In this document: piece by piece, positions 204 through 32,103 of the stretch | How positions within the stretch are numbered: the stretch's first letter is position 1 | How the letters are laid out: each line of letters starts with the position of its first letter | Assembly: GCF_000743755.1 (NCBI RefSeq) | Contig: NW_014569450.1 | Coordinates: 1-33,209 of the forward strand | Length of the DNA: 33,209 nt | Direction of reading: 5' to 3' | DNA from: Blastocystis sp. subtype 4 | Lineage: Eukaryota | Notes under the pieces: model-generated | Databases searched by the model: none | Told to the model about the DNA's origin: nothing | What the model saw: only the letters and a program-made list of their open reading frames with translations | Program-made: the position numbers and the translations under genes

Positions 204-3200
204 CTATTTCCCAGTCCTTCCTTTGTTTTCTCGAGTCTTGATTAGATTACTTCGTTGACCAAACACACCCACAGTTCGTCTTCCTTTGTTTCCCTTTAAT
301 TCTTCCCTCTTCTCTCCATACAACTCATCCTTCACACGTTCATTTGCCTCCGACAGTTCCTCCCCTTCTCCAACAGCTGGAGTGACAACACATCCACACG
401 TGAAGGCAAAGTATCCTCAAATAACAGAAGGGAAGCATCCTCATTCCATGCTGCATTCAAGAAGCCTTGTACAATCAGGATATTCACTTCACTACGCACA
501 CTACTCTGACTACAATCAAACATAGCCATCAACAGGTCCATTGCTACTGCCTGATATGTAGATGCATGACGAATCAGGAACGCTTGTAATGCCAATACCT
601 GGAACTTCTCACGTAACATCGTTAACAATGCCTCGCGTGATGCAGTAGGGAATCCTGACCATGCTGTAATGGTTTGAATATGCTTCATTGCTGTTCTCCA
701 GTCACCATGCTACATATGAGAGGAATGAATCATCTCAACCAGAATACACTCGTATGCTGCCATTACTCGAGTCACATTTGTCTCAGGAGATGCAGTAGCA
801 ATCTGATGTTGATATCGTGCATAGTATCGCTTGAATGTCGCTGACACCTTGTACAGATTGGTAAGCTGAGATGAATCAACACTCTCATACCTACATCGGC
901 TAACATATATCCAGGATCCATAAAGAAACAGGATAACAAATAACATACCTCCACACAGTCACAATTCATCCACTATTCATCATTCCATACACTCATATCA
1001 ACCATATGAGCAGGAAGTTTCCTTCGCTCTTCATTCACACGCATCTCTTCCTCTCCTGGTCGTTGATCATGTGTAGCATCACTGCCCTGACCCAACAACA
1101 CTCGTAATACTCCATTACGAGATCCTGTGTTCACCAGATCATCCAGACAGTTATGTGCGTACACCATCAGTCCTGATCGGAAGGCTGCCAGACCCAGCTG
1201 AGTCATCGCACGATTGAACAGGATCATTGTCTCCACACCTGCTGTACTCACTCGCTCCTGAAGATGGGTCATCAATAACAAATCTCGTGCTTCAGTGAAA
1301 CGGTCTTGTAATGCCAGGTGATATACTTGACAGAGAGCTGCCTGTTGCTGTTGTTGGAGTGTTCCATAACGATACACTATACCACACAGAGTCTTCAATT
1401 GACTCAATAGAGATGTGACAGGGATGTCTCCATATACTCGCTGTTGCAATCTACGATATCCCTCCTCAGTGAGATAATATCTGTCCTTCAGATCTCTCTT
1501 TCATATCCTACAATAGTTTCACTTGAATCAGAGCGAGTTGAGTTACAGTATGAACATCCTTTCCTTCAAGATATCTCTGTACACGAGCAGCCAACTCTCT
1601 CACACGCACTTCATCCTCAAGTCGTTTCACATATCGCACACAGTGTACATCCAACCCACGAAGACAACATGTCAGATCTTGGACCAGAAGTACCACATAT
1701 GAACACAGATCTCCTTCGATTAGAGCAGGTGTGTTCATATTGTTCAAATCTTCCACCTCTCTTGGGATCCGTTCCTCCACATTACGAATGGCCTCATGGA
1801 TGTTATAGAAACCGAGACTCATATCAGAATGAGTTTCCAGCAAGTTCACCTACATTGAAGAATCCACTGAGTCCTACCATCTGTTGTACCTCGCTGTACG
1901 TAGTTTGCCACTGTGTATCCTCCATAGCCATTCCTGTTGAGATCATGGCGATTTGACGACTTACCAGATGTGACAATACACGCAACTCATATTTCACACC
2001 CAGCTCATGAGCAAAAGGAAGAAGACGTTGTAAGAATCCAATAGAGGCTGGTGTGTCTATACATCATTCCTTCTCATCTACACTCACTTCGACGCTCCTT
2101 AGCAGACAATATACTCAACACAGCTTGGATTAGCTTCTCTGGAGTCTCATACGTTTCTTCTTTGACCTCTTCTGGTACAGCTTCAGCTTCATCTTCAGCT
2201 CGTTTCTCGTCATCCTTCTTTCGTTTCTCTTCCTCCTTCTTCCTCTTCTCCTCCTCCCGCTGCTTCTTCAAAGCCTCCTTTTGAGCCTCTCGTTGAATAT
2301 CACTTGGTTGTAATACCCACTTCGCACGACCTGTCAGCTTCGGATTCACCTCCACCTCACTATCACTGCTGCTGCTATCGCTACCAAACTCACTATCACT
2401 TGAGTCATCTGAATCACTGCTTGTCTCATCTGAGTCATTCTCTGATCCACTCGTTGCATATGATTCCTCTTCATACGATTCACTCTCATCAGATTCACTC
2501 TCATCCTCTGATTCACTGTCTGAACCACTATCATACTCCGAAGTGGATTCTTCTTCACTTGACTCTTCTGATTCCTCTTCACTCTCTTCTTCACTCTCCT
2601 CAGGAGGATTAGCACGGAATGATTCCACAAGTGGAGCAAACTCCTCATTCTTCAACTCCTTCTTGATTGCTTGCTTCAGACGGTTGTAAGCCATAGCATT
2701 CGGTTTTGATAATGCTTTCTGCTCAGCCTTCGCAAGTCCATTCACACCATCTTCGATATGCACAAACTCACGCACATATTGAATTGGATAGCCCTAAACA
2801 TCACTTCCTTTCTCCTCACCTACAGTATCACTCAACACTTTTCCATGGTCATCAATCAGTTTCTTCATTGTGTCAAAGTCTAGACCATTAAAATTCCATA
2901 TAGAACTCACCAGTACTCAATTGAACCCAATTGTTGATTCGTTGGTCATTCTTTATCTTCTTTACGATATCCTTCAGTTCATCAAGATATCGCTCTCTAA
3001 AAAGAATCACTCTAATCTCATTTCCCACTTTGGCGGTCTCACAACTCGTTTCTCTTCTTCACTATCGCTTTCAGAGACCACAACATATTTGGATTTCGTT
3101 GTAGGCTTCTTGGACACCTCTTCCTCAGTGGAGTCACTGTAGGAATCATCTTCCTCAGAGTCATATTCAGAACTGGATGCTGCCCAGAAACGATTCTTGC

Positions 3201-3441: not shown

Positions 3442-4980
3442 ATGAATTACGCAGAGTCTGTAAGTGTTGGGGAGAACGTCCATGCCATCCTTCAACGCTT
3501 TCGATACTCAACAAATATGACGAACTATTATGAATATAGACCAAAGGAAAAAGCTCTTCATGCTCTTTTAATTGTTCCTGGATATGTGGTATGTATTTGT
3601 TCTTTTGTTCTTGTAATATTTGACGATATCTCGTATGAAATGATTCGTTTGTTTCGTGTAAAAAAAGGGAGGATTGCTGAAGAAGTGAATCTGCATTCTC
3701 TCAAGCATAATATGAATCTCGATCTCTCGGTAGAGGGTGATCACTGGGAAGGAGATGTCTTAGGAAAGAATCCCTGTGGCTGGGGATCTCTGTACAACGA
3801 AGACAACTATTTGATCTATCACGGCTGTATGATTCTTTCAAATCGGATGTGCTATGGGGAGGATTACTATCCAACCAGTAATCCCTTATTGCGGTATGCA
3901 GGTGGATGGATTCAAAATAAACACATGGGTTATGGGCGTCTATATGATTTACATGGAGAAATACTGGCTGAAGGAAATTGGATCAACGATTCGTTAAAGG
4001 AGGTGTCATCTGTGGTAGTCACTTCAAAGTTATTATTAAATACAACATTAGACTCGCTTGTAGTCAATTTAGTGATTGCAGATAATACATGCAACTTTGT
4101 CAGAATGAAAGCACTGAACTTGTCCTATTTGGAGTCTCTTCGTACTCTAACAATTGGAGAGAAGTGTTTTGCCAATGTTACCGTTTTTTCTCTATCAAAT
4201 CTCCAATATCTGAATTCTATTACCATTGGATCCAAATCATTCAATTGGAAGTGTACTGGAGAGGAACGAAATCGTTGCATTTTCAGCATTACTTCTTGTC
4301 ATTCCCTCCATACAATTATTATTGGAGCCAAATCATTTTGTGACTATCAGATCTTTGTGATCGAAGATCTTCCTTCTCTAACTCTATTATCTATTGGAAG
4401 TGATGGATCTGGAAAGAACTGTTTCGATGAATGCCCTGTATTCACTCTCAGCGCTTTGCCTTCTTTAAAAGATGTCATCATTGGGGAAGGCTGTTTCAGG
4501 TTGGTTCATGATGTCAGTTTTATTGGTAATTGATGGAAGAAGTAATTATGTTCAGATTTACTGCAGTTGGAACGAATTGTTGTCAATAAGAATGCTTTCT
4601 CTGGAGATAACTCAAAGGAAAGAATGACCATTCATAACCCTCCTTATAACTTTATGAATACCCTTAAGATGCTAAGTAATGATGTTGTTTCTTGTTCATG
4701 TAGATCTACCAAAGTTGAATGATTTTTCAGTTTGTCTTGGAGGATTCTTTAATTTTGGATATGTCATTTTGCAGGGTAAGGTTGTTGGAAGTACTCAATC
4801 AAAGGGATTGCTCAATATGTGCAGTGTAACTTTGATCAATATGTATTTTCCTTTATATGTTCAGTATCAAGCGATCGTTTGCATTAGATATGGGATTGAT
4901 CTCTAGGAAAGACTTCTCTATCAACAGCAATTAAAGACAAGTCAAGAGAGAGGAAATATGATGAATGTACCATTTTTTAG
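3442..4980 (+). CDS. MORN-like repeat plus leucine-rich-repeat protein with C-terminal CaaX box (CTIF); start uncertain (upstream ATG at 3356 possible)
   Basis: WEGDVLGKNPCGWGSLY / YAGGWIQNKHMGYGRLY MORN-like units; repeated LxxLxIGxxxF LRR units; four ~29-nt introns after 4526 give ...RERKYDECTIF*, TAG at 4978-4980. Confidence 0.75.
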
Positions 4981-6410: not shown

Positions 6411-9224
6411 ACAATTCCTTCACTTTCTTCTTAGACTTTTGGGAGAAGAGAGTGATAAACATACTAATAATAACAGAAACTAGTACAGATCGTATTAAAA
6501 CTTGCTTATAGTTAATATCCGCAATGTGACTTCGACATCGTTGGACTTGATTGTACTGAATCAACTGTAAAATCCATTGAATTCTACTAATGAAAGATTT
6601 CTTCTTCTTATACCTTCGTAGAATCGTTTGGGCATCTCGAAGATACTCATCTCCTGAATCGATATCACTTACATTTGAAATCGAATTGACTGTAGTCTTG
6701 AAACTTGTTTCTAACAATACTATCGTTTCCTGGTATACATGATCAATGCGTCCGTTCCACTTCTGTAATTCATCCTATTGCTAATTCAATGGAATCATCA
6801 ATACAATCACATCATTATAGTCGGAGATCAGTAGTTGCAACATCACAATCAACTTGCTCTTTCGCATAATGTCCAGATGAAATGAACTATATACATGATT
6901 TACAGAGAACACACGATCCACAGAACCAATAGAACGATATATGCAATCTTCTGTCAGAGGAGCAATGCGTGTATGAATCTGTTCTCCAAAATACAAATTC
7001 AATCTTGTATTGGACAATAATTCAAATACACAACTCAATAAAGGAGCCATAATATCGTGAAGATTATAGTGCATTGGTAATTCATTGACAAAATAAGGAC
7101 TATTTGTTGACATTAACTCATTCTGAATAGCAAAAATCATCTGATTTTGACCATCTGAGTGATATACAACCAACTCACTTTTGTCAAAAAGAAGTGGTCT
7201 TTTGGATGTTCCCGTCATACAGAAGATATAGATCTGAATATCCTTACTAGTCATAGCATGATTCTTACTCCTCAGTACATCAAAAAGCACAGACGAATTC
7301 ACATACGATTGTTGTACAGGGAAGATTGTTCGACGATAACTGAGATGAGGTATGATAACCGAAGTGGTTGCTTGAAGAAGTGCTGATTGCAAATGTGGTT
7401 CATTCTCAAGTTTCAATTCTTGAAACGAAAAGTAAAACTCTTGAGATGGGAGCTTCAATCGTTCAACTTCATTACGAAACACACTATAATCAAAATAGTT
7501 TTCATCCACTGTAAACAAATCTTCAAAATCAGCTCTTGTGAAGTAGTTAACCTGAAAATGGAGTTTCTCTTTGGTTGAAGGAAAACGAGTTACAATATGT
7601 GAGAGAGAAGAGAGTAAACCCTCGACAGTGGTCGGGGTATTGGTTACTGGTGCCGGAATAGATCGACTGAATAATGAAGACTCGGGAGAGGGTGGACTAA
7701 GGACAAACGGTGGAGTGACAAAATGACTTATAACATCAGAAAGGATTCGTGAGAGTCGAATAGTAACCTCCATCTCTTCGACTGATAACCGACTATCTAA
7801 TGAGGTTGGATCGGTTGGAGGATAAGCCTTTTCAAGCATAAGAAGAGAATGATAATATCGAGAATAATCTCCAACATTCATATTGCTTCCAAATTGGAAT
7901 ATCTGAAGTATTGATTTGACTTGTTCTTCATCTACTGAACATTGAGAATTGTGTTCTCGAGCACAAGCTCGAGTTACACGATGATGAATGAATTGAGCAT
8001 AGTTTACAAAGACTTCTTGAGTTGTATTAAAGTAACGTAGACTCGATGAATAGTTTCCAGCGAAGAGGAGACTTTCCTTGGTTCGGATGTTAGACTCATC
8101 ATGAATCGAACCCCATTCAAATGGACCAGCACAAACATCAAGAATAAAGAACTGATCAATGAAGATATAATCACTCACAACATGTGTACCTTCAATCATA
8201 TTCACCAACTCATCATTCATTACAATATCATTATTGAGCACTTGCTTCATCTCTACAAGAAGTCGTTTCTGTTCATTCTTGTTATAAGCATGTTGAAGGA
8301 GCTCTAGGCTCCGACGAATACGTGCTATGGAGCTTCGACTCCGTTGCGATGCAAGATTCTCCTTCAGAAGACTATCACGTTTATAAGCCCACATGAAGGA
8401 GAGTTCACGCCAGTCAAATACACAGTAATCTGAGGACACTGAATGAGCAGCCGGAATGGGATGGAGACCTTCATCCAAGGAAGAGTCATCTTCGGGAGTT
8501 TCGAATTCGTCAGAAAATGTGAGTGGTTCTGTGAGAGGAAAGACAAAATCGCTAATGGCAAAGTCACTTCCTTCTCTGAAGATCTCATCGATCATCTTTT
8601 GCATCTCTGTATAGGAAAATTCCGTGCTAAAACCGAACGTACCTCCCACATCCACTTGAGAATTTAGGACCAAAATAATGAGGTCTTGGTCGTTGGGTAC
8701 AGGCTGATTGGAGTTCTGACTTACATAATCGAAGAGATTTCGAAGCTCCCTAACGATCTCATAGGGATTAATCACTTTCACATTCATCAAATTCATATCT
8801 ACGTCTCGGTACACAGATTCCATCACATGTCGAAGATATACTTCAACAAGCGGATTCACTTGAATAAAGTGATAGTGAATAAGGTAATCGATATGACTTC
8901 CATCCTTTTCCTGAATATTGTGTCCTTTGACTTCGAGAAAACGCTGGATCTTGTGACTACTCAACTTCTCCAAAATCCCATTCTGAATAGATGAAAAGTC
9001 GGAGTTAAAGCGATCAAAACCAAGAAGCATGAGATTTACATCCACTTCCACTTGAACATGATCGAAGTGAGAAAAAGATGTCACATTCGGTTCTTCAGGA
9101 GTCTTTAGATTATATATCAAATGTCGCAAGTTACTTCTTCTTCTGTTCCATCAGCATTCCGGTGTGAGAATGCACAGCACACGAGAAACATGCAAAGCAC
9201 GAGTTTCAGATGTTCTGACAGCAT
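6411..9224 (-). CDS. Large type I membrane protein (signal peptide, long luminal domain, C-terminal TM, KxKxx tail)
   Basis: MLSEHLKLVLCMFLVCCAFS signal peptide, 32-nt intron, then the 782-aa ORF (VNLMLLGF, ILDVCAGPFEWG); TM SVLVSVIISMFITLF; tail QKSKKKVKEL. Stop probably made by poly(A) at T6411; the genomic read-through stop is at 6397. Confidence 0.75.
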
Positions 9225-10502: not shown

Positions 10503-12777
10503 ATGGGTAACTGGCTTCTGGATTGTTTTGTGGATGAAACGAGCCTTCCTCAAGGCATTCATGGAATGGTGAGAGAATAATCGTAATCTCATTCTTTAGG
10601 TTCAGTTGTTCTATCTCTTTGGCTTGTATGCATTCCTCTATACCCTTGGTTGCACATATCTGAATAAAGCAAATGACAAACTTCTAATCTTTCCCAAGAA
10701 TGAATCTCTTGTTGGTTCTGTGATTATTCCTCTTCTCAGCTCATTTCCTGATGTGATTGTCAGTAAGTCTATTGAATCATTTGATTACGATAGTTTTCGC
10801 CTCTGCATTCTCCAAGTTCAATGATGTCTCCACTTATATTGGAATCGGAGTGGGAGCCATGGCAGGGAATGTCAATTTAGGAATAACGATTCCATTTATC
10901 TTGGGGTACAACGCAGAGTAGTGGGTGAAGAAATAGAATATGGTTCTCCTCCATTCCTCTTTCGAAGTTGGGACTTCCTGACTACAAACGAAAGAACGAG
11001 AAAGCTTCTGTAAGTATATAGAAAGAATTTAACGTAGATTTGGAAGAGTGGTTGTGGAACAAGTGAGATTGTTAAATACAACAATATCTTGATCGCTATT
11101 TCGTCGGTTCCACTCCTGATTCTTCTTGTTCTCGTAGTTCATAGCATTGAGTAATAGATCGCTTCCTTTATGATGGGAACCTATACTGGAAAAGAGAACT
11201 CCTATTTTCACATTGTTCTATTGATCGTATTCGTAATGGCATCAGTAATGTTTTGTATCTATCTCCTTGTTGAGTATTTCTATTTTGGAAGGAGTGAAGT
11301 ACTGATTAGAATCCGAAATCACTAATAGCTTACGGTTCAGCGTCGTGAATTGCTTCTGATTGATAATATTGAAAGTGGGCTGCTTTCTCTCTATGATGTA
11401 TTCTACCAGCTTCTTTATGTTCATTCTCTTGGAATGTGTCATTTCTAGTCACCTCATTCAAAACGATCTGTAGTTAATTACAAACTGTTTATGAGCGTCG
11501 TTAAGAGGTTTTTCAACCAGTATGCATTTGTTCCTGCCGATATTTCGAATGATTGCGATCTGAATACGATCCTTGGAGAAACATCATCTACGCCCGTCTC
11601 ACCATATGTCAAAGGAATGAAAGATTCGTGTACTCCAACTTCTCACAGGGAGTCCATTGATATGGACAACTCTCCATTGAAAGATGTTGAAACAACACCA
11701 AGTGCTGCGGACCGAAGACGAGTGGTTGACTTGTATTCCCTAAAGTGTTTATTCCAGGATGTAGGCTGTAAAGTGAATCTAACAGATTTGTATCGTATTG
11801 TAGTTCTTACTATTCGTTCTAAATGATAGACAAATCAGTCTCTATTTGATTTTGAAGCATTCTATGATCTGTTGATTGATTGCTTTACCATGTCCCTTGT
11901 AGATGATCTGAATATCAATATCGAAGATACACCTCATGATGAAGATCATTTGGACACAACACTTCAGGATCCAAATGATCTTTCAATCAATCTGAACGAA
12001 AAGGTTCAGTATGCATTTGTTGATGAAGATATTGCCAATTTCCATACAGATCGATTCTATTCCATCAAACATCATCTGATGTCAGAAGATTACTACAGAA
12101 CGGATAATGAGACTGAAGACAGACTTCTTCTTGTTTCAAATGTCGATGAAGAGTTTATTAAGCGTAGTCAGTTGTGCACAGACAGTGCAAGTACTGTCAT
12201 CATTTCTAGCTGTCTTAACACTAGAGTATTGTCGAGGAGATTCGAGATTATGCACCTGATCAACAACAACATGCCATGTGGAAGTATAGTATTTATTATC
12301 TTATCCTTGGAGGCATTCATTCCAACATCTGGTGTTATCCTCTTTGTAATGCTCTAGGTGAATTGAGTTTACGAATGGGGGTTTCAACATTCTTTGCTGG
12401 ATATGTCTTTTCTGCGGTGATTGCTTATTGGTCGGATTATTTCGATATCCCTCGCTGGGCAAAGCGGAAATCCATGCGATCCACGACTTGTATTATGTGT
12501 TATCTGCAAGGAAGTATAATTGTAATGAATTCTCTCGATATTGCTTGTTTTTGTGGAATTATGTATTTTCGAAGGATTCGGTGGGAATTCACATCTGCGA
12601 TTCTCTCCATGCTTCTGACCGAAATGGTTCTTTTGTGGATCACTTCCCAGGAAGTGATTAAGAAATGGTACGAGAGTGAATGGAAGTGAATGGTGTAGGA
12701 ATGCCTTGATTGTAGTGGGAGTTGTCCTGCTGGTTATGGCTCTGAGTTATTATCTTCCTCAGCTAGGTATTTTGTAA
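10503..12777 (+). CDS. NCL-type (plant/protist EF-hand class) Na+/Ca2+ exchanger-like membrane protein
   Basis: LVGSVIIPLLSSFPD and IGVGAMAGNVNLGITIPF match the NCL alpha-1 repeat (GGLxLPxLGAxPD, VGxLAGSxxxxLTIPW); second TM cluster LSLRMGVSTFFAGYVFS...IRWEFTS; TAA 12775-12777; TGTTTGTT 12786-12793. Confidence 0.75.
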
Positions 12778-12837
12778 GTTTAATGTGTTTGTTGATTGAG
12801 ATTATTTGATTACAAATCTCTTCACGTCCTACTAAGA

Positions 12838-15390
12838 ATGGAAGCAGAGACTGAACAAGAGAAGAAAGTCTCGCCTCGAAGGGTCTATCCTGTAAATGAA
12901 GTCAAGAATATGGACATGATCCGATTGTACTATATTTCTTGTTTTTGATTAGTCAGACGTAATGTAAATTCCGTAGAAAAGGCTGTGATACTGCATAATG
13001 AAAAGGGAGAGGATTTGGATTGTTCCGTCTCTGAGACTTCTGATGGAGAAGATTGGTATAAATCATATTGTTAGTGATAGGTAGTTGTTTACCAGTCCAT
13101 GAATTGAAGCGAGTCAAGATATCTGAAATCATGGGTATCTCAATTCCCAATTCAATCTGGAAACGTTCTAAATTACCTATGGACGGTAATAATGATATGA
13201 GTACAGATATTCCATTGCCAGGTCCTGTATTCTCCTCTCCAATTGATACATTGTACCGTAAATACGGAGTAAGCGAGGCTGAATCGAGAGTAATCAGTGA
13301 GGAGAAAGAGTATTTAAAAGGAATGGTGATAAGGTGTAGGCAGAGGATGAATGAAGAGGCACGAGAAATAATTGAAAAGAAAGTGGAAGCGAATCGAGGG
13401 ACTTCGGATTCAGTAGTATTGTCGACTCTTCTCTCTGTAAGTCCTCTGGTTCGCTTTTGATAGAAAGGCTTATCGATGGTGGGATGATAATAGTGCTAAT
13501 ACAAAATGGAAAAACATTCAGTATTTACCAGTTGAGTTCAGTTCTACCTATACTCCTCACCATTGTCCATTAATATATAATAATTCTCGGTATGAATTAA
13601 CTCCAGAACAGGAACAATTGTGGAATGTATACTGTCGCTCGCCTAGTCTTCGATCCTACTTCCCAGAAGTGTTAAAATTGTGTCAGGAGGAGATGAAAGA
13701 CACTGTTACAATTGAGTCGTTGGATCAAGTGGATTATGTCAAATATCGATCTTTAGTTAATAAAAGTCAGCCTCCTGTTCTTAGTCAATATGTTATTGCA
13801 GATCATCGATTGCGGGGAGTTCGATATCTGAATCCTCTATGTCAAAAAGTTCACACGGTCAACGATGAAATTCTGTTTATTGTATTGGATTTACAGAAAT
13901 ATTTCTGATTTCTAGAATCCCCCAATAGAAGAAGAGATTCGCTTGAATGGATGTCTCGATACTGTATTTCCTCCCGCTTCTCAGGGACATAATTGGAACA
14001 CGGTGACAGTAAATCCAGAGAGTTGTGAGTTGATGGAGTGTGTGGTGAAAGAGTATGGTTGGAAAATGAGTGGAGCAGATCTTTCTCTTCAGGAATGGAT
14101 CAGTAATCGTGATTTCTTTGATACAGCAAGGTCATTTCGAGATCATTATGCCTCTTTTAAGTCCTTCATTGCCTTTGGAATCTCTAATTCAAATCTGTCT
14201 CAAAGGTAGAATAATTCCTTTCTATGGACTGTAGACAGCTTGCTACGATGCTGTGGTTTCTGGATTATCTGCTGATTCCCGCGGTGAAGAGCAATCATGA
14301 TTTGTGCAACCTAACCGTGAATTCTGTTCATCTATCCCATCCTTGTAACCTTACATTGACGGATGTATCGTTTCCTTGCCAATTAAGGAACATGATCGAT
14401 GTATTGTTGAGATAAGAATGTCAGATAGTTATTGCAATTTCCAGATGGAGAGATGGTATATAAGAATCTAAAGGAATTCTGTAATAATAAAAAACCAACT
14501 GATCTGGTCTTTGACAAATTGAATGTACATTTTCGGTTTATTTTTGTCTAGTAGAAAGAGTTGGTGCAAACTGAACTAGAATCGTTGCTACCGGGCTTCA
14601 CATATCCCATCTTCCTTTCATTCGTGTTTTCGTCCATTTTCAACGAAATGCTTCGTTTTCCACTTCCCTCCACTTGTTCTGACAATCACAAGATTCAATT
14701 CTTTCACAGAGCATGTATTGAGTTGGTAAAGGCAGTTCGAATCGATTCGAGTACTCTAGATTCGTATTTAGATCGAAAAGAGAAAATCAAGTTGCGGAAG
14801 CATCAATTGAAGGAGTTGGAGAAATGGAAACGAATTGTGGAGAAGGGAGGAGAGATTCCACTGTTTTCTGAGGACGAACGGAAAGGAATTGAACAATCAG
14901 CAGATGTGATTGAAAAAGAGGAGCGAAAGTCGAGGAAACGAGCATATCGTGAAGAAAAGAAGCGAAATCCAACGTTATCGAAACGAGAGTTCAAAAAGGA
15001 ATGGATTGAAAGAATGCGTATGAAGGAGGAAGAGAGACGAAAGGTTATGAAAGAGAAGAGTCATTACTTTGCCGAGAAGCCATCAAAAGATCGAATCATG
15101 AAGCGAATTGATCATTGGGAAAAGGAGTTGGAGGAGTTGGAAGAAGATTACGAGAAGGAAGTGAGATTAGAAGGACGTAGTGATTGCGTAGGAGGTTCTG
15201 GCTTTGAAAACGAGTAAGAGACAAGTGTTATCAAAGGTAGATCCTCGAATCATTATTTGCTGGTGTAAAGTCGTAGGAGAATGAGAAATGATTGATTGAT
15301 AGAATGATATTTCTGTTGAGGATATGTGCTCAAACAAGTTTGTTCTTAAGAATACTTGGGCAATGGAAACTCCTTCCACTTTCGTTTACT
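12838..15390 (+). CDS. DNA topoisomerase IB-like protein, predicted catalytically inactive; at least 9 short introns; stop codon completed by polyadenylation
   Basis: Colinear Top1 motifs: YRWWDD, TKWKNIQY...YELTPEQE, PPASQGHNW, FDTARSF, RQLATMLWFLD, VYKNLKEFCNNKKPTDLVFDKL, KIQFFHRA, charged coiled-coil linker, DPRIIICWCK, TWAM. In-frame T at 15390 is followed by 4 nt and TGTTTGTT (15395-15402). Confidence 0.85.
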
Positions 15391-15447
15391 GGATTGTTTG
15401 TTCTATCATGCTTGGTTCCTTTAACACACAAATGGGAGGATAAAGTA

Positions 15448-17882
15448 TTAGAATCCTTCCTTGCTGGCTTGTTCAATAATCTCATCCATCTGAGCTTGGA
15501 TGGAACGAGGAATGCCTTGAACTTTGACATTCAAGAAGCCACGAATGATGACAGAAATAGCCTCATCTTCCGTCATTCTTCTGGTCATCAAGTACTCAAT
15601 CTTATCTTTCGCAATCTTTCCAATTGCAGCTTCATGAGACAATTCAGTACCATATCCACCACTGATTTGTGGAATGGAATGAATAACACCCTTTCCTTCA
15701 TTCACTACGAGTCCCTGACACTCAATATGGCCCTTCGTGTTCTCTCCAAACCCTTGAATGTCAGCACGAGCATAAATCTCGCCTCCTTTGCTGATCGTAC
15801 GAGTAATACTCTCACTACGAGAACCCTTTCCCTTCAAAAGTGCTCGACTTCCAATATCCAATACCGTACCTTCTTTAGCAAGCAAAACAGAACTGAATTT
15901 GGCTACTGAATTCTCACCACGTAGATCAGCTACAGGACACATCTGCACCTTGATAACAGGCTCCAGACACACATAATTGCTATAAAATACGCCGTTATCT
16001 TCAACAATAGCACCACTTCGAGGTAATGCCACATAGGAGTTACACCAAGTATGAATCGAAAAATCAATAATTTAATGCAACACCTACCATACTAAAGCAT
16101 AACTCTGAGTCTTTCTCAACATAGAACTCAGAAACACCATAATGTTTTCCTCCGACAATGTATTCATGATTGTCTTTTGAACCACAATGATAAGTACATG
16201 TTGAAGCAACAGTGAGTTGCGATCCAGGCATAGAAATCAAAAGATTATGAACGTACTGCATCTGATTGTTCTCCATAATCAATTGACTATTCACTGGATG
16301 CTTGGACTTAGCACCTGGATGAGCAATAATCACATAGCCAGTAGGATCCTATCAATGAGAATAGAATAAGGAATAAACCTTCTTATCATTCTCTGCTACA
16401 GCACGTGTAACTTCGTCTTTCTCTGAATCCAAAGCTCTCCACATATACTTGTCTACTCATCATTAGTAATATCAATCCTGACGAATCCAATCATATTTCT
16501 GGAGTGCTTTACGAAGAGACAACACTTCAATACCATCATCATAAGACTCAAACTCTTCTACAACCTGGTCTCGCTGACGATAGGCACCTCCATAAACATC
16601 TATGATCAATCGATTTCATTTCACCTACCAACTTCATTTGTGTCCACCATCACCTTCTTGTTCTCCTCCTTCACATTCACTTTGACCTGATCTCCTTCCA
16701 AGAATGCATCATCACTCACAGAACTCACATTATCCAGGAGAGTCTTCACAGGAGTCTCGACTTGAAGAGGTTCTTCCTCCATTAGACTCAACTGTTGTTC
16801 CTTTGTGGAACTGGTCATGAATGCATCCAACAGACTTGCTGGCTTCTTTACATCCTTACAAGCACAGATTCGATGCTTCACCATTCCATGCTTCTCTTGC
16901 TCAGGACAGTGACAACAATCCTTGTTACAGACTAAATTGCGGAAATAGCTATGAATTATGGACTCCTTAAATTCGTACTCAAATCCTTCTTCTGCAATCA
17001 TATTGAAAAACACTTGTTCGTCTCCAGTGCATGCGATATATCCATCGACTAACACATGAGCCACAGTTCCATGCATATAATCCAGAATACTACCCGTATG
17101 TGTAATGACTACGAATAAGAATGAAATCACAATCAAACTGATGGTCGCAGAATGTACACCATTGACTTCACGGTCTTGTAAAGCCGAAAGAGCTCTTCCT
17201 AGAGATTGGGTAGAAGGAGGAACACTTACCTAACACACGAACTGATTGGAGGTCAACTCCACTCTCTGGTTCATCGAGCATCGATAACACTGGCTTCTGG
17301 AGGAGCAACTGCAAAGCCTCACAACGCTTTCTCTCACCTCCAGAAAAACCCACATTCAGATCACGGTCCCAGTGATCCTCCATTGTCGTAGTCTTCTTTA
17401 CGGCATCAATGTCTGTATGTCATTTCTACTACAAAGGTCATACATTCCTTGTCATTATCAGCGAAGGCATGACTAATCAGCCTATTCAAAGGCAGACCAT
17501 CAATCTCAGGAGGGTTCTGAAACAGCATTCCCATTCCCATAACTGAACGATCCGAAACCTAAGCATTAATCAACCTTCCACATGTCCAACAGGCGAATAG
17601 GTGACATCTTTGCCTAGAAATGTAATGGATCCCTGGGTAACCTTGCAGTCACTAGAACCATCAACTTTCCAAACATTTCCACTACCTTAATCCCATCAAT
17701 GTCTTAATGAAAGTACTCTTTCCAGAACCATTAGGTCCAAAGAGAATATGAGTCTCTCCCGGATAGATTGACATGGTGATTCCCTTCAATACCTCCTTTC
17801 CAGCGATTTCGACGTGTAAGTCCTTTACTTCAAGAATAGGTTCTATAATCAAGCTTCTCCACGCTTTCCTACGCTGACTCAT
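15448..17882 (-). CDS. sufCB: Fused SufC-SufB (SufCB / SmsCB) Fe-S cluster assembly scaffold, archaeal type
   Basis: One spliced ORF with about 11 introns. SufC ABC ATPase (GPNGSGKS, FSGGERKR, LSMLDEPESGVD, ITHTG), Cys-rich linker CNKDCCHC, then SufB (GIEVLSLRKALQKYDW, VHN, HYGVSEFYV, GHIECQG, LSHEAAIGKI, EAISVIIRGF). TGTGTGTT on the - strand at 15423-15430. Confidence 0.95.
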
Positions 17883-18029
17883 GTTTACAACCAAAAATAA
17901 TTTGAGTAGAGTCAACGATTGTGAGCAGCTGCTTTCGAAGACAACCGTTTTCTCTACGAATCTGACCGAAATTTGATAAGTTAGTTCAACAAACACATTG
18001 CAGCAAGCTACGCCAAACCAGGAACACTT

Positions 18030-19807: not shown

Positions 19808-22748
19808 ATGAGCGTGGTTCGATCATTTTTAATTGTTCTGCTCCTTACAGTGGTGTCATCTTATTCTTGTAGTCTTGATTCTTTTTGTATATGTCTAGTG
19901 GGTGATGACGCTGAAGAGATTGTGCTTCCCAAGAATATTCCTAGTAATGGAACCATTCCTGCAGCAGGAAAACTTACTTTTGTAACGCCTGGTCTTACCG
20001 ATTGGCGCTATGTTATTTGGGGTGTAAAACTTGACGTGTAATATGTAAGATGTCTGATGTAATATTTAGGACAGGAAAGCAGATGGGAGAAAAGGTTGGT
20101 TCGGTCAAGATTTCCTGTGATTCTGTTATTGAATTGTTGTGGTACATATCATAGATCATATATAGCGATGTAAAGAATGGTATTCCTGTTACCCGTTATA
20201 ACTTGATGACTCCCTGTAGCAAGAATACAACTATTGAGATTACAAACATGGATTCTGAAAGCAAATACTGGGTGATTGTTGCTGATGTCGATTGTATCTT
20301 CATTATCAAAGTATAACTGATAGCAACGATGTATGCTCTTACTGATAATATTCCCAAATCCACTGTTGTTCCTGGTGACTCTGAGTATGAGTTTGTATCC
20401 TTCAAAGGTTACGTAGGAATAGTTCTTCGGTTTTATTGTAGATTGGCAAAGATGAACCTGGTTCTGGAGCTGTTGATGTTGTGAACATTACTGTGACCTA
20501 CGATGCTTTTGCCTCTACCAAGATTCGAGCGTATGCTTGATTATGGAATCTCATATTCAGATTTGTTGCGAAGGGTCAGCGTCCTGATGACAAGAACCCG
20601 TTGAAGTAGAAAGAGTAGTGAAGAATAATGATTAGACTTGAAGGAGGAGATGGATTCCTCTATGCTTCGTTGCATCGTGGTATGGATCTGTTCTGTAATG
20701 ATTGCAATTTGTATGTGGGCGTGATGGTGGAGAAGCCAATGAAGGACATTGTGCACTTCTCAGTTAATTTCCTCGTTGACCGTGACATCGTATATCTTCA
20801 GAACAATGAGGCTATAGAAGCAGTAGTGGAGCCTGATTCTCATGGTCAACACTTTATCATTGATCTTCGTAACCTGGAGTATGATTCTGATTTGTACATT
20901 GGCATTCAGAAGCTCAATGAATTTGATACCACTCTGACATTGGATGTTAGTCTAACTGTTGGTATATCCTCTTCATTTCATTTCTAGTCTTTTGATGATG
21001 GTGAATGGGATACTGTGAAGTCTGTTGATCTTCAAGGAGCAGGCCTGCGCGAATGGGGTATTCATCGTACAGAGGACTGTTTCCGTGTGGGTGGAGTTTA
21101 TTACATTCGAGTAACAAGCCAACCGTACGTCTCAGTCCCATGTAAGTTCTCAATTGTCTATCGAATCACGCGAGTTCCTGCAAACTATCTTTATCTTGGC
21201 AAGACACATCGTTCGATTAGTAAGAATACTGGTGTTGGTATTTCATACTATCGAATCAACATTCCAAAGGAGTCATTTGTTGATGTTCAATCTGTGAAAG
21301 TCACAATGACCAATATTAGTTATACGTACAATCCTGGACCAGTATACTGTCTTGGCTTCGATGTATATCTTGGTAAGCAAGCATCTCAGGCTCTGATTAA
21401 CAATCCTAAGGATCCTTCCACTTATACATTCACTCAGTATATGGCTTATAAGACTAGTGAGAGTTTTGTGCTTACAGAGAATGAGGAAGGATGGTGTACA
21501 GATTGTACCTTCGGATTCTCGATTCGTACTACAAATGAAACTCAGTGGACAGTTACTGCTGAATTAGGGTTTGGTATGAGTAATTGTATTCAATGATTTG
21601 TAGTTCCTTTCATGATACGTCCTAATGAGCCGAAGAAGGGTAGTTTGAAGGCATTCACAGGAGGTATAGAAACCTATTTCTATCTCCATTTGAGTGAGTA
21701 TCGTGCTGTTGAAATTGCTGTACAGCGAGAGAAGGAAAAGGATCCCAATGTGGTGTTGTATGTTTCTACCAGTCCTCATGCTTCCATTACCAATCACTTC
21801 TGGACTGATTCAACACAAGCAGATAGTCGTGCTGAGATTGAGTTGACACAGGATCATCCTGCTTATTGTACTGACTGTTATTATTACATTGGTATCTATT
21901 ACATGGATGAGGTGCAGGAGAGTGATGATACTGAAATCACTGTATCTGTGAATTGTCCTGATAATGTATGTCGTGTGTGCGATAAAGAGGGATTGGATCC
22001 GGCCACAGATTGTATGGAATGTCTACCAGGCTTCTATGGTGAGAATTGTCAGATGTGTCCTCCTTGTAATCATGGTACTTGTGTTGATGGTAAGCGTGGT
22101 ACTGGACAGTGCTTATGTGATGAGGGATGGGGTCCTGAGGGTCAGTGTAATGAATGTACAGAGAATCACTATGGTCTCCAATGTCTTGAATGTGAGTCAT
22201 GCAATGATCACGGAGTATGTGATGCTGGTCTTAAGGGTACTGGTGAGTGTAAATGTGAGACCAATTTCGATCCTCGTACTCGTTGTGAGAATTGTGCTCG
22301 AGGTTATTTCGGTATTACTTGTGAAGGAGAGTGCATGAAGACAGAGAATGGAGTATGCGATAATCATGGCCGTTGTGATGATATGATGATGGGAGATGGT
22401 CGTTGTCATTGTGATGAAGGTCGTGTTGGATTGAAGTGTGATACGGAGTATGATAAGGATGCTTGTAATCCTCATTGTGCCAAGGATCGTGGTGCCTGCG
22501 ATGAAGAGAAGGGTCTTTGTGTATGTTATGATGGATTTACTGGAAAGGACTGTTCGAAGGGAGCATCTAACATTTGGATTACTATCTCCATATCTCTGAT
22601 GCTTGTGATTATTGTTATTGTGCTGGTCGTTGTGGTTATGAAGGTATGTAAGATGGACAAGGTGAAGCAACGTAAGACACCCAAGAAGAGCAGCCAGAAA
22701 GAAGCGTTGTTAAGTAAACCTGATGACATCTACTCTGGAGTACATTAA
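19808..22748 (+). CDS. Type I cell-surface protein with repeated beta-rich modules and EGF/laminin-EGF-like repeats
   Basis: Signal peptide MSVVRSFLIVLLLTVVSS; modules ending FCNDCNLYVGV / WCTDCTFGFSI / YCTDCYYYIGI; EGF-type CNHGTC..GTGQCLCDEGW repeats; TM IWITISISLMLVIIVIVLVVVVM; tail with YSGV. Confidence 0.85.
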
Positions 22749-26745: not shown

Positions 26746-28047
26746 ATGGAGGACAGTGTTCTCAACGATCTCGTCTCACTATTGAGGTAATTATTTTCTT
26801 TTCATGGAAATTCTAGTGATGCAAAACCAGAGGTGCGTCAAAGAGCTGCAGAGTATCTTTGTAGCTTGACTTCTACGAAAGAGGGATGTGAAATGATTGC
26901 AAACAAACGAGGACATATTGCTCTTACTAAGTTACTTGGGGACAGTATTGTTAGTACTCGTTCTGTTTTTAATTGTATAGGCAACAAGCAAATATGTGAT
27001 TACAGCTCTTATTAATATGTGTGACGACACTTCAGTTCTAACAGACATGGCAAACAATGAACTTGTTAACAAACTAATGGAAAATTTAATGGTTGTTATT
27101 ATGTTCAGTACTGAAGGATAGGAGGAAAACTATCCACTTGTTAATCTCAATTTGATGCTTTTAGCAAATGTTAGTACTGTATACACTTTCTAGATGACTG
27201 AATTCTAGAATGATATGGGTGCAGGAGCTATCCTACAACTTCGTGAGAATCAAGGAAAGTTGAAAGTACATTATTGTATGCAGTTCAAACTCAGGGCCTT
27301 CACTTGTGTCGTCTCGTACTATGGTTCCTCCGAACTCCCGTCGAGAGTGAAGAAGCTGATCCGTATCAGTATGTTGCCACGATCCTCAATAATGTGACTC
27401 GAGTATGGATACTTGACTGTAATGATTTGTAGTTATATGAAGGTCGTGATTTGGTGATGAACGAGAATCGAAAGCTCATTGCGAAGTTGATTCCGTATAT
27501 CAATTCATCCAATCCAATTCGTCGTAAAGGAGTCATCAATATGATCCGGAACATTATGCTAGATGATTTCTACTGGGACAAGCTTGTTGACAACTGGGAT
27601 GTTGATGGTTACTTGAGGGATATCGTATTTCGTGTCTGTGCGAATCTGAATGGTAATCACATCATTGAGAAGAAGGAAGTTGATCCGATGATTACAACGT
27701 TAAAGAAGGATCGAGAACGAGATGTTGAGATTATTCAAGTGTCCTTAGATCTACTGTTGATTATTACCAAGTATCAGGCAGGTCGTGAGTTATTACGAAA
27801 GAACAATATCTATTATGTTATTAGAGATATGCACATGGGTAATCATTTGAAAGAGATGTGAATTGTAGCTACAGAGAAGATTCTTCCTGAGAATGTTGTT
27901 GATGTGATTGGTGATCTTGTGACCCACCTAATGGCTGATGAGGAGCATCCAATGAAGAAGGAGGAACCTGTTGTCGAAGAGATTCATGAGGAAACGAAAG
28001 AATCCGATTCAGACAGTGGCTATGATGACCTCCCTGATTTAGAATGA
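26746..28047 (+). CDS. HGH1: HGH1 (FAM203/Hgh1) eEF2 chaperone homologue
   Basis: DPYQYVATILNNVT..EGR, IRRKGVINMIRN, RERDVEII..LLLI..GRELLRKNNIYYVIRDMH; acidic tail ending DDLPDLE*; TGTCTGTT at 28057-28064. Confidence 0.85.
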
Positions 28048-30538: not shown

Positions 30539-32103
30539 TTACTTGTACTCGTTCATGAAGTGTTCCTGAAAAGCACCCATACGTGCAATGACTGAATCAA
30601 TCTGATCTTCTGGAGGAAGGAATGTCGTACGAACATGATACGTTCCTTCTTCCTGATGGAATCCACTGCCAGGTACGGTTACAATACCCGTATTGTTCAA
30701 CAACTCCTCACAATACAGATAGTCAGGTTCCACTCCACGCTTCTTTGCTTCCTCAACCGCCTTTTCAGGAAGCAAGACCTTAAAGAAAATATACATGGAA
30801 CCATCCACAGGATTACATGAAATACCCGGCATAGAGCTCAAAGCATCACATAACTGAATAGCACGCTTCTTCAAGCTATTCAGGATAGCTTGACGTTCTG
30901 AAGCATACAATTCATATGAAGGCTCACCTGGTTTCGGAGGATTTACCATAATATCAACAGCCACTTGACCATCAATATTCGAGCACAGATTGATAGACCA
31001 AAGCTTAAATATCTGATCATACACCTCCTTATCAAAACCCATTAGTTGCATGTAACCACCACGACGACCACATTCACCAAAGAAGCCCTTACTAATACTA
31101 TGGAAAGAGATAAGCTGTAGAGCAGCTGCCTCCTCTCCCATATCCAAAGCCACTTTACGGAATGATACAAACTTCGCAGTATCGACATAGATATTGTCTT
31201 GATACACTTCATCAGCCATCAGAACAATCTTATGTTTGATACAGAAACGAATACAATCTTGCATTTCCTTTTCATTTAGACACTACGAATGATAAAGCCA
31301 ATAAATGACTACCATGCCAGTAGGATTACCAGGATTGATAATAACCATTCCCTTCAGCTTAATACCTTGATCTCTTGCTTCTTTTACTCGCTTTTCTAAC
31401 TCCTCCATATTCAATCCCCATTTCTCTCTCTCATCCAAATAATATCCAACTAGCTTTGCATTGTACAACGTAATTGTTGCAGAGTAAAGAGGATACTGGG
31501 GAATAGGGGTCAAAAAGCCATCAGAGTGGGAAGAAGATAAAAGAAGCAATGCATTTTGCACAGATTGGGAGGCACCATTTGAAAGGAAAATGGTTGAAGC
31601 GTCGCATCTGTATCCATCACGACGCGTAATGAAGTCAGCTACATCCTGACAAATGAGTCCAATACCTTTGCTTGTGCTATATGCACCACTTCCACCAGGA
31701 TTTGCTTCAACTAATCTGTGAGCACGTTCTATTACATCTGAAGGGAAAGTTCCTTCAGGAACGAGGTGCTCCAGTTCTGGATACGTGACAAGAGAAAGGA
31801 CTTGGCGAACAAAGGTTAGGGGCTTCTGTCTGAGTTGCTACAGTTAATTCAGCGAAAATATTCATACCTGAGGATTTCCGATATTACAGTACACGAGGGA
31901 GTCAAACGGAAACTGTTTACCTTCCTTCATCTCCTTCTCGATCTCTTTTGCACGCACAACAATTTGACCACGTACGGCATATTGCGCCTGGATCAACTAT
32001 ATATCAGGATCTTTTCACATCCAAACCTGGGGATTAACGTCTTTTATTGTAACAGCTTGTTCTACTCATCATCCTAACGCTGACAGGGACTACCTGGAGC
32101 CAT
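30539..32103 (-). CDS. GPT: Alanine aminotransferase (PLP-dependent, class I)
   Basis: AQYAVRG, NIGNPQ, NGASP, PIPQYPLYSA, INPGNPTG, ADEVYQDN, SFHSISKGFFGECGRRGGY (PLP lysine), VPGSGF, HVRTTFLPP. Confidence 0.95.

What the first reader, a model, noticed from the sequence alone, without database searches (positions are those of the whole stretch)
12838..15390. Intact, full-length topoisomerase IB paralogue that appears to have lost its whole catalytic pentad (pseudo-topoisomerase)
Seen: after removing 9 canonical short introns, the ORF (about 760 aa) is uninterrupted and colinear with eukaryotic Top1 from the cap region to the C-terminus. Established: human Top1 needs R488, K532, R590, H632 and Y723. 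Hand alignment puts LALRAG against LLIPAV (R to P, 14278-14280) and finds no FLGKDS motif. It also puts AKVFRTYNAS against YPIFLSFVFS (R to L, 14615-14617), LCNHQR against AVRIDS (H to I, 14741-14743) and LNYLDPR against LSKVDPR (nucleophile Y to K, 15234-15236). The FRGRG motif is also missing. Structural residues (WW, KW, GHNW, DPRI, WCK, WA) are kept, and the gene has clean splice sites and a precise poly(A) signal. Inference: this is a selected, non-catalytic DNA-clamp or scaffold protein rather than a decaying pseudogene. I know of no described nuclear pseudo-Top1 of this kind.
Basis: partly seen in the sequence, partly recalled or inferred. Interest (0 to 1): 0.9.

Follow-up and report, generated by a model that had tools for sequence, protein, structure and literature searches.

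The report
Conserved dead topoisomerase I paralogue, Blastocystis
This Blastocystis gene encodes an intact, full-length relative of DNA topoisomerase I that lacks the tyrosine and both arginines needed to cut DNA, is kept in several related lineages, and therefore likely serves a non-enzymatic role that is still unknown.

Summary
Removing nine GT-AG introns of 28-34 nt from 12838-15390 (+) gives an open 760-codon frame. It ends at T15390, four bases before a TGTTTGTT element, which is the Blastocystis rule for stops made by polyadenylation. The product is colinear with eukaryotic topoisomerase IB to the last residue (132.6 bits against a profile of five canonical enzymes). Pfam Topoisom_I and Topo_C_assoc score above their gathering cut-offs.

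Pro, Leu and Lys stand at the columns of human R488, R590 and Y723. The motifs that carry K532 and H632 are absent, although their exact alignment is ambiguous. The FRGRG lip is deleted.

It is not a decaying pseudogene. Exon fragments of at least five lineages, down to 30% identity, keep the frames open. A spliced 337-residue orthologue is 64.7% identical without a single gap and carries Pro, Leu and Arg at those columns.

Published InterPro counts show two Top1-like proteins in ST4, ST1 and one ST3 strain, but only one per genome carrying IPR001631, the general DNA topoisomerase I entry.

GenBank already lists the gene, as 'DNA topoisomerase 1' and as 'hypothetical protein'. No paper I found describes the loss of the active site.

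The 'DNA clamp' idea is not supported: only 9 of 43 conserved basic columns remain basic. The function is unknown.

The parts
12838..12926 (+). Exon 1, starting at the ATG; acidic N-terminal region
   Evidence: The same start is used in both public models P0072 and P0073. No orthologue fragment covers it.
12957..13055 (+). Exon 2
   Evidence: intron 1 is unique; intron 2 has two possible solutions. P0072 agrees with this model.
13085..13436 (+). Exon 3, the N-terminal region before the Top1 core. It holds a probable further 30-nt GTA..TAG intron at 13310-13339.
   Evidence: P0025 is a roughly 90% identical fragment of this exon. The BT1 model P0072 lacks the ten residues encoded by 13310-13339.
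13468..13881 (+). Exon 4, core subdomain I (WW...KW...LTPEQEQ.WN)
   Evidence: Pfam Topoisom_I_N E 2.5e-5. Match to 2b9s_A. Orthologue fragments P0001, P0002, P0004, P0007 and P0008.
13916..14205 (+). Exon 5 (FPPASQGHNWNT...). The 19-residue FRGRG lip of canonical enzymes is missing at the exon 4/5 junction.
   Evidence: The identical fragment P0003 was seen on 219 contigs. More distant fragments: P0005, P0009, P0010 and P0012.
14235..14400 (+). Exon 6. It holds the R488 column (Pro, 14278-14280) and the place where the FLGKDS motif should be.
   Evidence: The spliced orthologue P0102 also has Pro here.
14429..14524 (+). Exon 7 (PDGEMVYKNLKEFCNNKKPTDLVFDKLN), the stretch most like canonical Top1
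   Evidence: Match to human Top1 chains. Pfam Topoisom_I.
14555..14749 (+). Exon 8, first part: the rest of former core subdomain III. It holds the R590 column (Leu, 14615-14617) and the region where CNHQR should be.
   Evidence: Orthologues have L, L, I and L at the R590 column.
14750..15160 (+). Exon 8, second part: a long charged helical linker (about 137-139 residues, 42 K+R and 37 D+E)
   Evidence: The AlphaFold2 model is all-helical with pLDDT 81-94 over most of this part. It is 60% identical to P0102.
15192..15272 (+). Exon 9, the start of the C-terminal domain. Lys (15234-15236) stands at the column of the nucleophile Tyr; DPRI and CWCK are kept.
   Evidence: The orthologue has Arg there.
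15303..15390 (+). Exon 10. It ends ...TFVY plus T15390, which polyadenylation completes to UAA.
   Evidence: canonical enzymes end F-V-F at the same column. The spliced orthologue ends ...TFIY.
15395..15402 (+). TGTTTGTT downstream element, four bases after the poly(A) site
   Evidence: 11 matches in the window against 2.39 expected, and 0 of 100 shuffles reach 11. The rule is from PMC4159000 (passages read).

Best explanation
This is a conserved paralogue of eukaryotic topoisomerase IB in Blastocystis (subtype 4) that keeps the enzyme's overall architecture but lacks the nucleophile tyrosine and both catalytic arginines, so it is predicted to be unable to cleave or relax DNA and likely acts as a non-enzymatic binding or scaffold protein.

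Shown:
- The 10-exon frame is intact.
- It is homologous and colinear with Top1B.
- The R488, R590 and Y723 columns are replaced, and the same columns are replaced in orthologues.
- The FLGKDS and CNHQR motifs and the FRGRG lip are lost.
- The reading frames are kept in divergent lineages.
- A spliced orthologous transcript-like contig exists.

Inferred:
- It has no topoisomerase activity.
- It is maintained by purifying selection for a new role.
- That role uses the retained fold together with the long, highly charged and conserved helical linker, which carries basic clusters and so would suit nuclear targeting or binding of nucleic acid or a partner protein.
- Canonical clamping of duplex DNA is unlikely, because one lip and most of the conserved basic residues are gone.
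- A separate canonical TOP1 does the real relaxation.
For: Gene model:
- establish it, and the public models P0072 and P0073 agree with it independently.

Homology:
- 132.6 bits against an HMM of 5 canonical Top1, covering residues 159-240 and 324-760.
- On P0072, Pfam Topoisom_I scores 48.0 (cut-off 23.7) and Topo_C_assoc 35.5 (cut-off 25.1).
- PDB hits: 2b9s_A at 7e-11 and human Top1 at about 1e-10.
- The 16 best Foldseek hits of the cap model are all Top1B.
- ESM Atlas neighbours are Top1 clusters.

Lost chemistry:
- P, L and K stand at the R488, R590 and Y723 columns.
- Orthologues have P; L, L, I and L; and R at those columns.
- Only 32 of 99 columns invariant in canonical enzymes are kept, and 9 of 43 basic columns.

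Selection:
- 11 of the 37 hits of the exhaustive profile search are exon fragments of this family from several lineages.
- The five exon-4 rows form one group (SH-aLRT 99) with pairwise identity down to 30%.
- P0102 is 64.7% identical over 337 residues with 0 gaps. The former active-site region is the most conserved part, at 70%.
- The median identity of orthologues between subtypes is 59-61% (PMC5608401 abstract).
- The intact exon-5 peptide was seen on 219 contigs.

Expression:
- P0102 lacks introns 6-9, which genomic contigs of the same lineage (P0070, P0099-P0101) retain. It also ends at the predicted poly(A) stop.
- The BT1 annotation pipeline favoured introns supported by RNA-seq (PMC12129017, passages read).

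Paralogy:
- Supplemental Table S5 of PMC12129017 counts 2 proteins with the Top1 catalytic core in ST4-BT1 but 1 with IPR001631 in every genome.
Against:
- No DNA of divergent orthologues could be fetched, so there is no dN/dS estimate.
- One metagenome contig (L003, 1587 nt) carries the same gene with two frameshifting deletions of 25 and 10 nt. The gene can therefore be lost in at least one natural allele, unless that contig is misassembled.
- Ascertainment: only open frames enter the protein collections, so lineages in which the gene decayed would not be seen.
- The K532 and H632 columns cannot be aligned reliably. One method puts an Arg at K532 that is conserved in the one orthologue covering it (P0102), and another puts a His at H632.
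- No full-length structure could be predicted, so retention of the fold in the former catalytic domain rests on sequence profiles alone. The model of exon 8 gave only generic coiled-coil matches.
- The S5 table gives counts only. It does not say which proteins were counted.
Confidence: 0.8

Rival explanations
1. Non-covalent DNA clamp or supercoil sensor. The dead enzyme would still encircle duplex DNA as a Y723F mutant does, and would act as a topology reader or roadblock.
For: The cap, the C-terminal domain (DPRI, CWCK) and a basic linker are kept. The former active-site region is the most conserved part, at 70%.
Against: The lip that closes the clamp (FRGRG...) is deleted. Only 9 of 43 conserved basic columns are basic. 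The core has 36 K+R against 64-78 in canonical enzymes, net charge -8 and pI 5.8. The phosphate-binding arginines are replaced by Pro and Leu.
Confidence: 0.2
2. Unitary or decaying pseudogene. The open frame would be a chance survival or a recent inactivation.
For: All catalytic motifs are gone. The stem branch is long, 2.18 changes per column. One contig carries two frameshift deletions.
Against: 0 of 40 shuffles and the reverse strand can be read through at all. Frames are open in lineages down to 30% identity. A spliced orthologue shows 0 gaps over 337 residues at 64.7% identity. The intact peptide is on 219 contigs against 1 contig for the deleted form.
Confidence: 0.05
3. The sole, degenerate TOP1 orthologue. 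Blastocystis would have no working type IB enzyme and this gene would be what is left of it.
For: I could not fetch a named canonical TOP1 of subtype 4.
Against: Table S5 of PMC12129017 gives 2 proteins with the Top1 catalytic core, C-terminal domain and SMART-type entry in ST4-BT1, and 1 with IPR001631 in all ten genomes. P0015 scores 200.9 bits against the canonical profile, where family members score 28-46.
Confidence: 0.05
4. Still an enzyme with rebuilt chemistry, either using another nucleophile or acting on another substrate such as RNA.
For: The former active-site region is strongly conserved. An Arg conserved in the one orthologue covering it (P0102) can be aligned to K532.
Against: No Tyr, Ser or Thr is conserved at or beside the nucleophile column (K in the window, R in the orthologue). 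Both arginines that bind the scissile phosphate are replaced by Pro and by Leu or Ile.
Confidence: 0.03

Closest known systems
Canonical eukaryotic DNA topoisomerase IB (human TOP1; PDB 1A36, 1K4T and others)
   Same: Same domain order: core subdomains I-III, helical linker, C-terminal domain. It is colinear to the last residue. Two of the three Pfam domains score above gathering.
   Different: About 22% identity. Pro, Leu and Lys stand at the R488, R590 and Y723 columns. The FLGKDS, CNHQR and FRGRG motifs are absent. Only 9 of 43 conserved basic columns are basic. The N-terminal region is acidic rather than lysine-rich. The linker has about 139 residues, against 61-144 in the five canonical sequences compared.
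Kinetoplastid two-subunit topoisomerase IB (Leishmania donovani, PDB 2B9S)
   Same: The large subunit (2b9s_A) is the best PDB match by sequence and by fold. It too lacks the tyrosine on that chain.
   Different: In kinetoplastids the large subunit keeps Arg-Lys-Arg-His and a second subunit supplies the Tyr (established knowledge, recalled). Here the arginines are gone as well, and the C-terminal domain sits on the same chain with Lys or Arg at the Tyr column.
Pseudoenzyme paralogues of other topoisomerase families, such as the degenerate B-like subunits that partner Spo11 (recalled, not examined here)
   Same: A topoisomerase-derived protein is kept for a non-catalytic role.
   Different: That is a different fold and family (type IIB). 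I found no type IB example in four literature searches.
Public records of this gene: XP_014527833.1 / KNB44390.1 'DNA topoisomerase 1' (subtype 4) and KAK8804804.1 'hypothetical protein' (strain BT1)
   Same: Same locus and nearly the same exon structure.
   Different: XP_014527833.1 skips the 12 residues VDPRIIICWCKV. Both records read 17 codons past the poly(A)-made stop. BT1 removes a further 30-nt intron. Neither name signals the loss of the active site.

Membership tests
Eukaryotic type IB topoisomerase (fold and homology) | Pfam Topoisom_I (PF01028) above its gathering score | tested here: met
   48.0 bits against a cut-off of 23.7 on P0072, covering profile positions 10-225 of 228. A canonical control, P0034, scores 300.
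Eukaryotic type IB topoisomerase (fold and homology) | Pfam Topo_C_assoc (PF14370) above its gathering score | tested here: met
   35.5 bits against 25.1 on P0072, and 31.7 on the spliced orthologue P0102.
Eukaryotic type IB topoisomerase (fold and homology) | Pfam Topoisom_I_N (PF02919) above its gathering score | tested here: not met
   19.5 bits against 25, and only profile positions 2-94 of 213 match. Homology of this part is nevertheless supported.
Eukaryotic type IB topoisomerase (active enzyme) | Nucleophile tyrosine (human Y723) in the SK.NY.DPR motif | tested here: not met
   Lys in the window by phmmer, MAFFT and HMM alignments. Arg in the orthologue.
Eukaryotic type IB topoisomerase (active enzyme) | Catalytic arginines (human R488 and R590) | tested here: not met
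   Pro or gap, and Leu. Orthologues have Pro, and Leu or Ile.
Eukaryotic type IB topoisomerase (active enzyme) | Catalytic Lys and His (human K532 and H632) | tested here: inconclusive
   The FLGKDS and CNHQR motifs are absent. Alignments disagree: gap, R or F at the Lys column, and D, T or H at the His column. The only candidate His is Arg in P0070 and P0102.
Eukaryotic type IB topoisomerase (active enzyme) | Relaxation of supercoiled DNA through a covalent 3'-phosphotyrosyl intermediate | not testable with these tools
   This needs a biochemical assay.
Kinetoplastid-type split topoisomerase IB | A core chain with intact Arg-Lys-Arg-His, with the Tyr supplied by a separate small subunit | tested here: not met
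   Both Arg columns are replaced, and the C-terminal domain is on the same chain.
Pseudogene | Frame disrupted by stops or frameshifts, with no constraint across relatives | tested here: not met
   The frame is open in the window and in divergent lineages. One exception is contig L003, with 25-nt and 10-nt deletions.

The most novel reading that the evidence does not exclude
This is the first natural pseudoenzyme of the type IB topoisomerase family. The paralogue arose by duplication within the Blastocystis lineage, lost the whole DNA-cleavage apparatus and most of its DNA-binding charge, and yet has been kept, spliced and expressed for as long as the human-associated subtypes have diverged. 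Its former active-site region has been re-used as a new conserved binding surface, and its doubled coiled-coil arm serves as an adaptor, for example to regulate or to localise the canonical enzyme.
Probability: 0.35. Interest if true: 0.75.

Novelty: new variant of a known kind. Interest (0 to 1): 0.6.

Why it matters
Type IB topoisomerases are usually treated as enzymes and nothing else. A conserved paralogue that keeps the architecture but discards the chemistry would show that the fold has a second, non-catalytic use. It would also give a natural 'dead' variant for asking what Top1 does apart from cutting DNA.

There are practical consequences too. The GenBank name 'DNA topoisomerase 1' is misleading for this protein, so counts of topoisomerase genes in Blastocystis, and any idea of it as a camptothecin-type drug target, should rest on the other, canonical gene. 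The locus is also a clean example of how public models go wrong when the stop codon made by polyadenylation is ignored.

Tried and rejected
- Whole genome of the window: none is held.
- Single-exon searches: exon 6 and the start of exon 8 gave no PDB match on their own. The protein search with exon 6 found nothing.
- DNA of divergent orthologues for dN/dS. The metagenome scan returned only three loci of the same subtype: L001 is identical, L002 is chimeric with bacterial DNA after 14427, and L003 is the deleted allele. Two scans of prokaryote genome contigs and one of viral contigs found none.
- AlphaFold2 of exon 8 (pLDDT 75.5) gave long helical hairpins. Foldseek found nothing at E <= 0.001, with human Top1 only at rank 38 and E 9. 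VIA-align gave only generic coiled-coil matches with Z below 8.
- AlphaFold2 of the cap, using orthologue P0040, had a low mean pLDDT of 57.3. Its Top1B matches are weak, the best at E 2e-3.
- Alternative splicing that might restore a Tyr: none of the 32 nine-intron solutions changes the catalytic columns. With introns of 20-60 nt, alternatives around exon 9 exist, but they destroy the DPRI...CWCK match that the orthologue and canonical enzymes share.
- MAFFT's placement of a His (LRKHQL) at the H632 column was rejected as a conserved catalytic residue, because P0070 and P0102 have Arg there.
- Earlier notes of this scan held nothing on this genome or topic.
- Supplements of PMC5608401: files 32 and 33 hold no 'topoisomerase'. 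Files 13-31 were not searched and files 2-5 and 7-11 hold no text, so a gene list there could have been missed.
Full report
**What is in the sequence**

The window has about 40% G+C. On the minus strand just downstream (15448-18029) it carries SufB-core and ABC-ATPase pieces. It also has 11 copies of TGTTTGTT, against 2.4 expected by chance.

Later, one search returned a named protein of this locus: XP_014527833.1 / KNB44390.1, 'DNA topoisomerase 1 [Blastocystis sp. subtype 4]'. It sits on a contig of 33,209 nt, which is the length of the window.

**Gene model**

I removed nine introns: 12927-12956, 13056-13084, 13437-13467, 13882-13915, 14206-14234, 14401-14428, 14525-14554, 15161-15191 and 15273-15302.
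- All are GT..AG, eight of the nine begin GTA, and they are 28-34 nt long.
- The result is an open frame of 760 codons starting at the ATG at 12838.

A shortest-path search over all GT..AG segments of 26-36 nt gives these results:
- The real strand needs exactly nine introns.
- The reverse complement cannot be read through, and neither can any of 40 shuffles.
- There are 32 nine-intron solutions. They differ only at four boundaries: intron 2, the acceptor of intron 7, intron 8, and the donor of intron 9.
- All 32 keep the residues discussed below.

The modal intron length in Blastocystis is 30 nt (PMC5608401, Table 1 passage).

The frame ends ...TFVY followed by T15390. TGTTTGTT lies at 15395-15402, exactly four bases further on. 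That is the published position of the element relative to the poly(A) site in Blastocystis, where U or UG plus the tail makes the stop codon (PMC4159000, passages read). Two of the five canonical Top1 proteins compared (P0024, P0032) end F-V-F at the very same alignment column.

**Independent gene models**

Two public models agree with this one.
- KAK8804804.1 (strain BT1, a subtype 4 strain; 767 aa) uses the same nine introns. It also removes a further 30-nt GTA..TAG segment (13310-13339, ten residues) and reads 17 codons past the poly(A) stop to a genomic stop.
- XP_014527833.1 (771 aa) differs at introns 1 and 2, skips the 12 residues VDPRIIICWCKV and has the same read-through tail.

The BT1 annotation pipeline was tuned to prefer introns supported by RNA-seq (PMC12129017, methods passages). 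So the tenth intron is probably real, and the protein would then have 750 residues.

**Homology**

Single exons give only weak hits:
- Pfam Topoisom_I_N 2.5e-5, Topoisom_I 1.3e-3 and Topo_C_assoc 7.7e-4.
- PDB matches for exons 4, 7 and 9, and none for exon 6 or the start of exon 8.

The whole protein is unambiguous:
- It scores 132.6 bits against a profile built from five canonical full-length enzymes (P0024, P0031, P0032, P0034, P0037). Residues 159-240 and 324-760 are aligned.
- On P0072, Pfam Topoisom_I scores 48.0 bits (cut-off 23.7) and Topo_C_assoc 35.5 (cut-off 25.1). Topoisom_I_N scores 19.5, below its cut-off of 25. The canonical P0034 scores 300, 284 and 92.6.
- PDB matches are 2b9s_A at 7e-11 and human Top1 chains near 1e-10.
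- Identity to canonical enzymes is about 22%.

**Catalytic residues**

- R488 column: canonical L-A-L-R-V-G stands against L-L-I-P-A-V, so Pro or a gap in all three alignments.
- R590 column: canonical A-K-V-F-R-T stands against Y-P-I-F-L-S, so Leu.
- Y723 column: canonical S-K-.-N-Y-.-D-P-R stands against S-K-R-Q-V-L-S-K-V-D-P-R, so Lys, with a three-residue insert.
- K532: the FLGKDS motif is absent. MAFFT puts a gap there, the HMM an Arg, and phmmer a Phe.
- H632: the CNHQR motif is absent. The HMM gives Asp and a contiguous register gives Thr. MAFFT gives the His of LRKHQL after a 16-residue insert.
- The lip segment with FRGRG, 19 residues in canonical enzymes, is deleted at the exon 4/5 junction.

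Overall, 32 of 99 columns that are invariant in the five canonical enzymes are kept. Only 9 of 43 columns that are basic in at least four of them are basic here. The core has 36 K+R against 64-78, net charge -8 and pI 5.8.

**Relatives**

An exhaustive profile search found 37 proteins at E <= 0.001.
- I read 11 of them as exon fragments of this family: P0002-P0010, P0012 and P0025.
- I read the other 26 as canonical Top1.

Exon 4 exists in at least five lineages, with 84, 67, 54, 33 and 30% identity to the window. In a tree of 26 rows and 210 columns (quick search), the five family rows form one group with SH-aLRT 99, on a stem of 2.18 changes per column. The nearest canonical row is P0015. 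Rows left out of that tree were the short canonical fragments P0018, P0022, P0026, P0028 and P0029, and the family fragments that do not cover exon 4.

Exon 8 orthologues have Leu, Leu, Ile and Leu at the R590 column (P0067, the window, P0069 and P0102). The candidate His is Arg in P0070 and P0102.

**A spliced orthologue**

The most telling relative is P0102, 337 residues from a 1,682-nt contig.
- It runs without interruption from the exon-6 equivalent to ...TFIY.
- It therefore lacks introns 6-9, whereas genomic contigs of the same lineage (P0070, P0099-P0101) retain intron 8.
- It is 64.7% identical to the window protein with no gap over all 337 residues.
- By region, identity is 70% in the former core III, 60% in the linker and 62.5% in the C-terminal domain.
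- It has Pro, Leu and Arg at the R488, R590 and Y723 columns.

This looks like an assembled, spliced and polyadenylated transcript, although I could not see what kind of run it came from. The median identity of orthologues between Blastocystis subtypes is 59-61% (PMC5608401 abstract), so this gene diverges at the ordinary rate of the genus.

**Population data**

- The intact exon-5 peptide was seen on 219 contigs, and exon-8 peptides on 161-260 contigs.
- Against this, one metagenome contig (L003) is identical apart from one substitution and two deletions. One removes 25 nt (14071-14095, flanked by TGGA) and the other 10 nt (about 14874-14885). Both shift the frame.
- The corresponding peptide P0006 is on that one contig only.
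- This is either a rare null allele or an assembly fault.

**Paralogue or orthologue?**

No genome was available to search. Supplemental Table S5 of PMC12129017 (rows read) gives these counts per genome:
- IPR013500 (Top1 catalytic core): 2 in ST4-BT1 and 1 in the other nine genomes.
- IPR013499 and IPR025834: 2 in both ST1 strains and in ST4-BT1.
- IPR014711 and IPR036202: 2 in both ST1 strains, ST3-NMH and ST4-BT1.
- IPR001631 'DNA topoisomerase I': 1 in all ten genomes (Cafeteria, Proteromonas, three tortoise isolates, ST1 twice, ST3 twice, ST4).

The table gives counts, not protein names. That this gene is the extra member is my inference from its Pfam hits. It fits a picture of one canonical enzyme plus one degenerate paralogue in the human-associated subtypes.

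**Function**

What is shown:
- The architecture is kept, and the chemistry and most of the DNA-binding charge are lost.
- The former active-site region is the most conserved part.
- The linker is long (about 139 residues), helical and very charged, with 42 K+R and 37 D+E. Its pLDDT is 81-94 over most of its length.

What is inferred:
- The protein has no topoisomerase activity.
- It has a non-enzymatic binding or scaffold role that uses the fold and the linker.
- Canonical clamping of duplex DNA is unlikely.

The structure work added little. The exon-8 model matched only generic coiled coils. The cap model was poor, with pLDDT 57.3, although its 16 best Foldseek hits were all Top1B. ESM Atlas neighbours are Top1 clusters at 0.90.

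**Literature**

Four searches found no description of a catalytically dead type IB topoisomerase paralogue or of this gene:
- 'Blastocystis' with 'topoisomerase' (33 papers hold both terms, 15 listed, titles and abstract starts read).
- 'topoisomerase IB' with 'pseudoenzyme'.
- 'paralog', 'catalytically inactive' and 'lacks the catalytic tyrosine'.
- 'pseudo-topoisomerase' and variants.

The main texts of PMC5608401 and PMC12129017 do not contain the word 'topoisomerase'.

**Verdict**

The reading 'selected non-catalytic paralogue' is well supported, and the reading 'DNA clamp' is not. The gene is already in the databases under a misleading name. Its pseudoenzyme nature appears to be undescribed.

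Noticed in passing
window 15448-18029 (- strand): A SufB-core piece (15448-16071) and an ABC-ATPase piece (17682-18029) lie on the same strand. They converge on the 3' end of the Top1-like gene, with about 45 nt between the two coding ends. This fits the fused SufCB gene reported for Blastocystis (recalled).
   Followed up: partly
L003 (1587 nt) against window 13516-15137: A metagenome contig of the same gene has a 25-nt deletion (14071-14095, between TGGA repeats), a 10-nt deletion (about 14874-14885) and one substitution (13717). Both deletions shift the frame. It is either a possible natural null allele or a misassembly.
   Followed up: partly
L002 positions 3762-4515: This metagenome contig is identical to window 10667-14427. 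It then continues into unrelated AT-rich DNA that looks bacterial, so the assembly appears chimeric, with the break inside intron 6.
   Followed up: partly
   Followed up: partly
window 15237-15272 and 15391-15443: The RefSeq model XP_014527833.1 splices out the 12 residues VDPRIIICWCKV. Both public models add 17 residues (WIVCSIMLGSFNTQMGG) by ignoring the stop made by polyadenylation.
   Followed up: yes
window 12786-12793: A TGTTTGTT element marks the 3' end of the upstream + strand gene only 45 nt before the ATG at 12838, so the promoter and 5' UTR of the Top1-like gene must be very short.
   Followed up: no
window 973-2793 (-), 21597-22748 (+), 27433-27861 (+), 30539-31837 (-): Other genes recognised by Pfam are eIF3c, a protein with laminin-type EGF repeats, a DUF383/DUF384 protein and a class I/II aminotransferase. 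Several long open frames (for example 6781-9150 on the minus strand, 789 aa) have no Pfam match.
   Followed up: no
P0086-P0093, P0095 (cluster of P0068): Several database peptides join the ...KRIDHWEKELEEL end of the linker, or a similar ...EKELEEL stretch, to an unrelated enzyme-like sequence. The shared short acidic stretch seems to have pulled unrelated proteins, and one chimeric contig (P0093), into the same 90% cluster.
   Followed up: no
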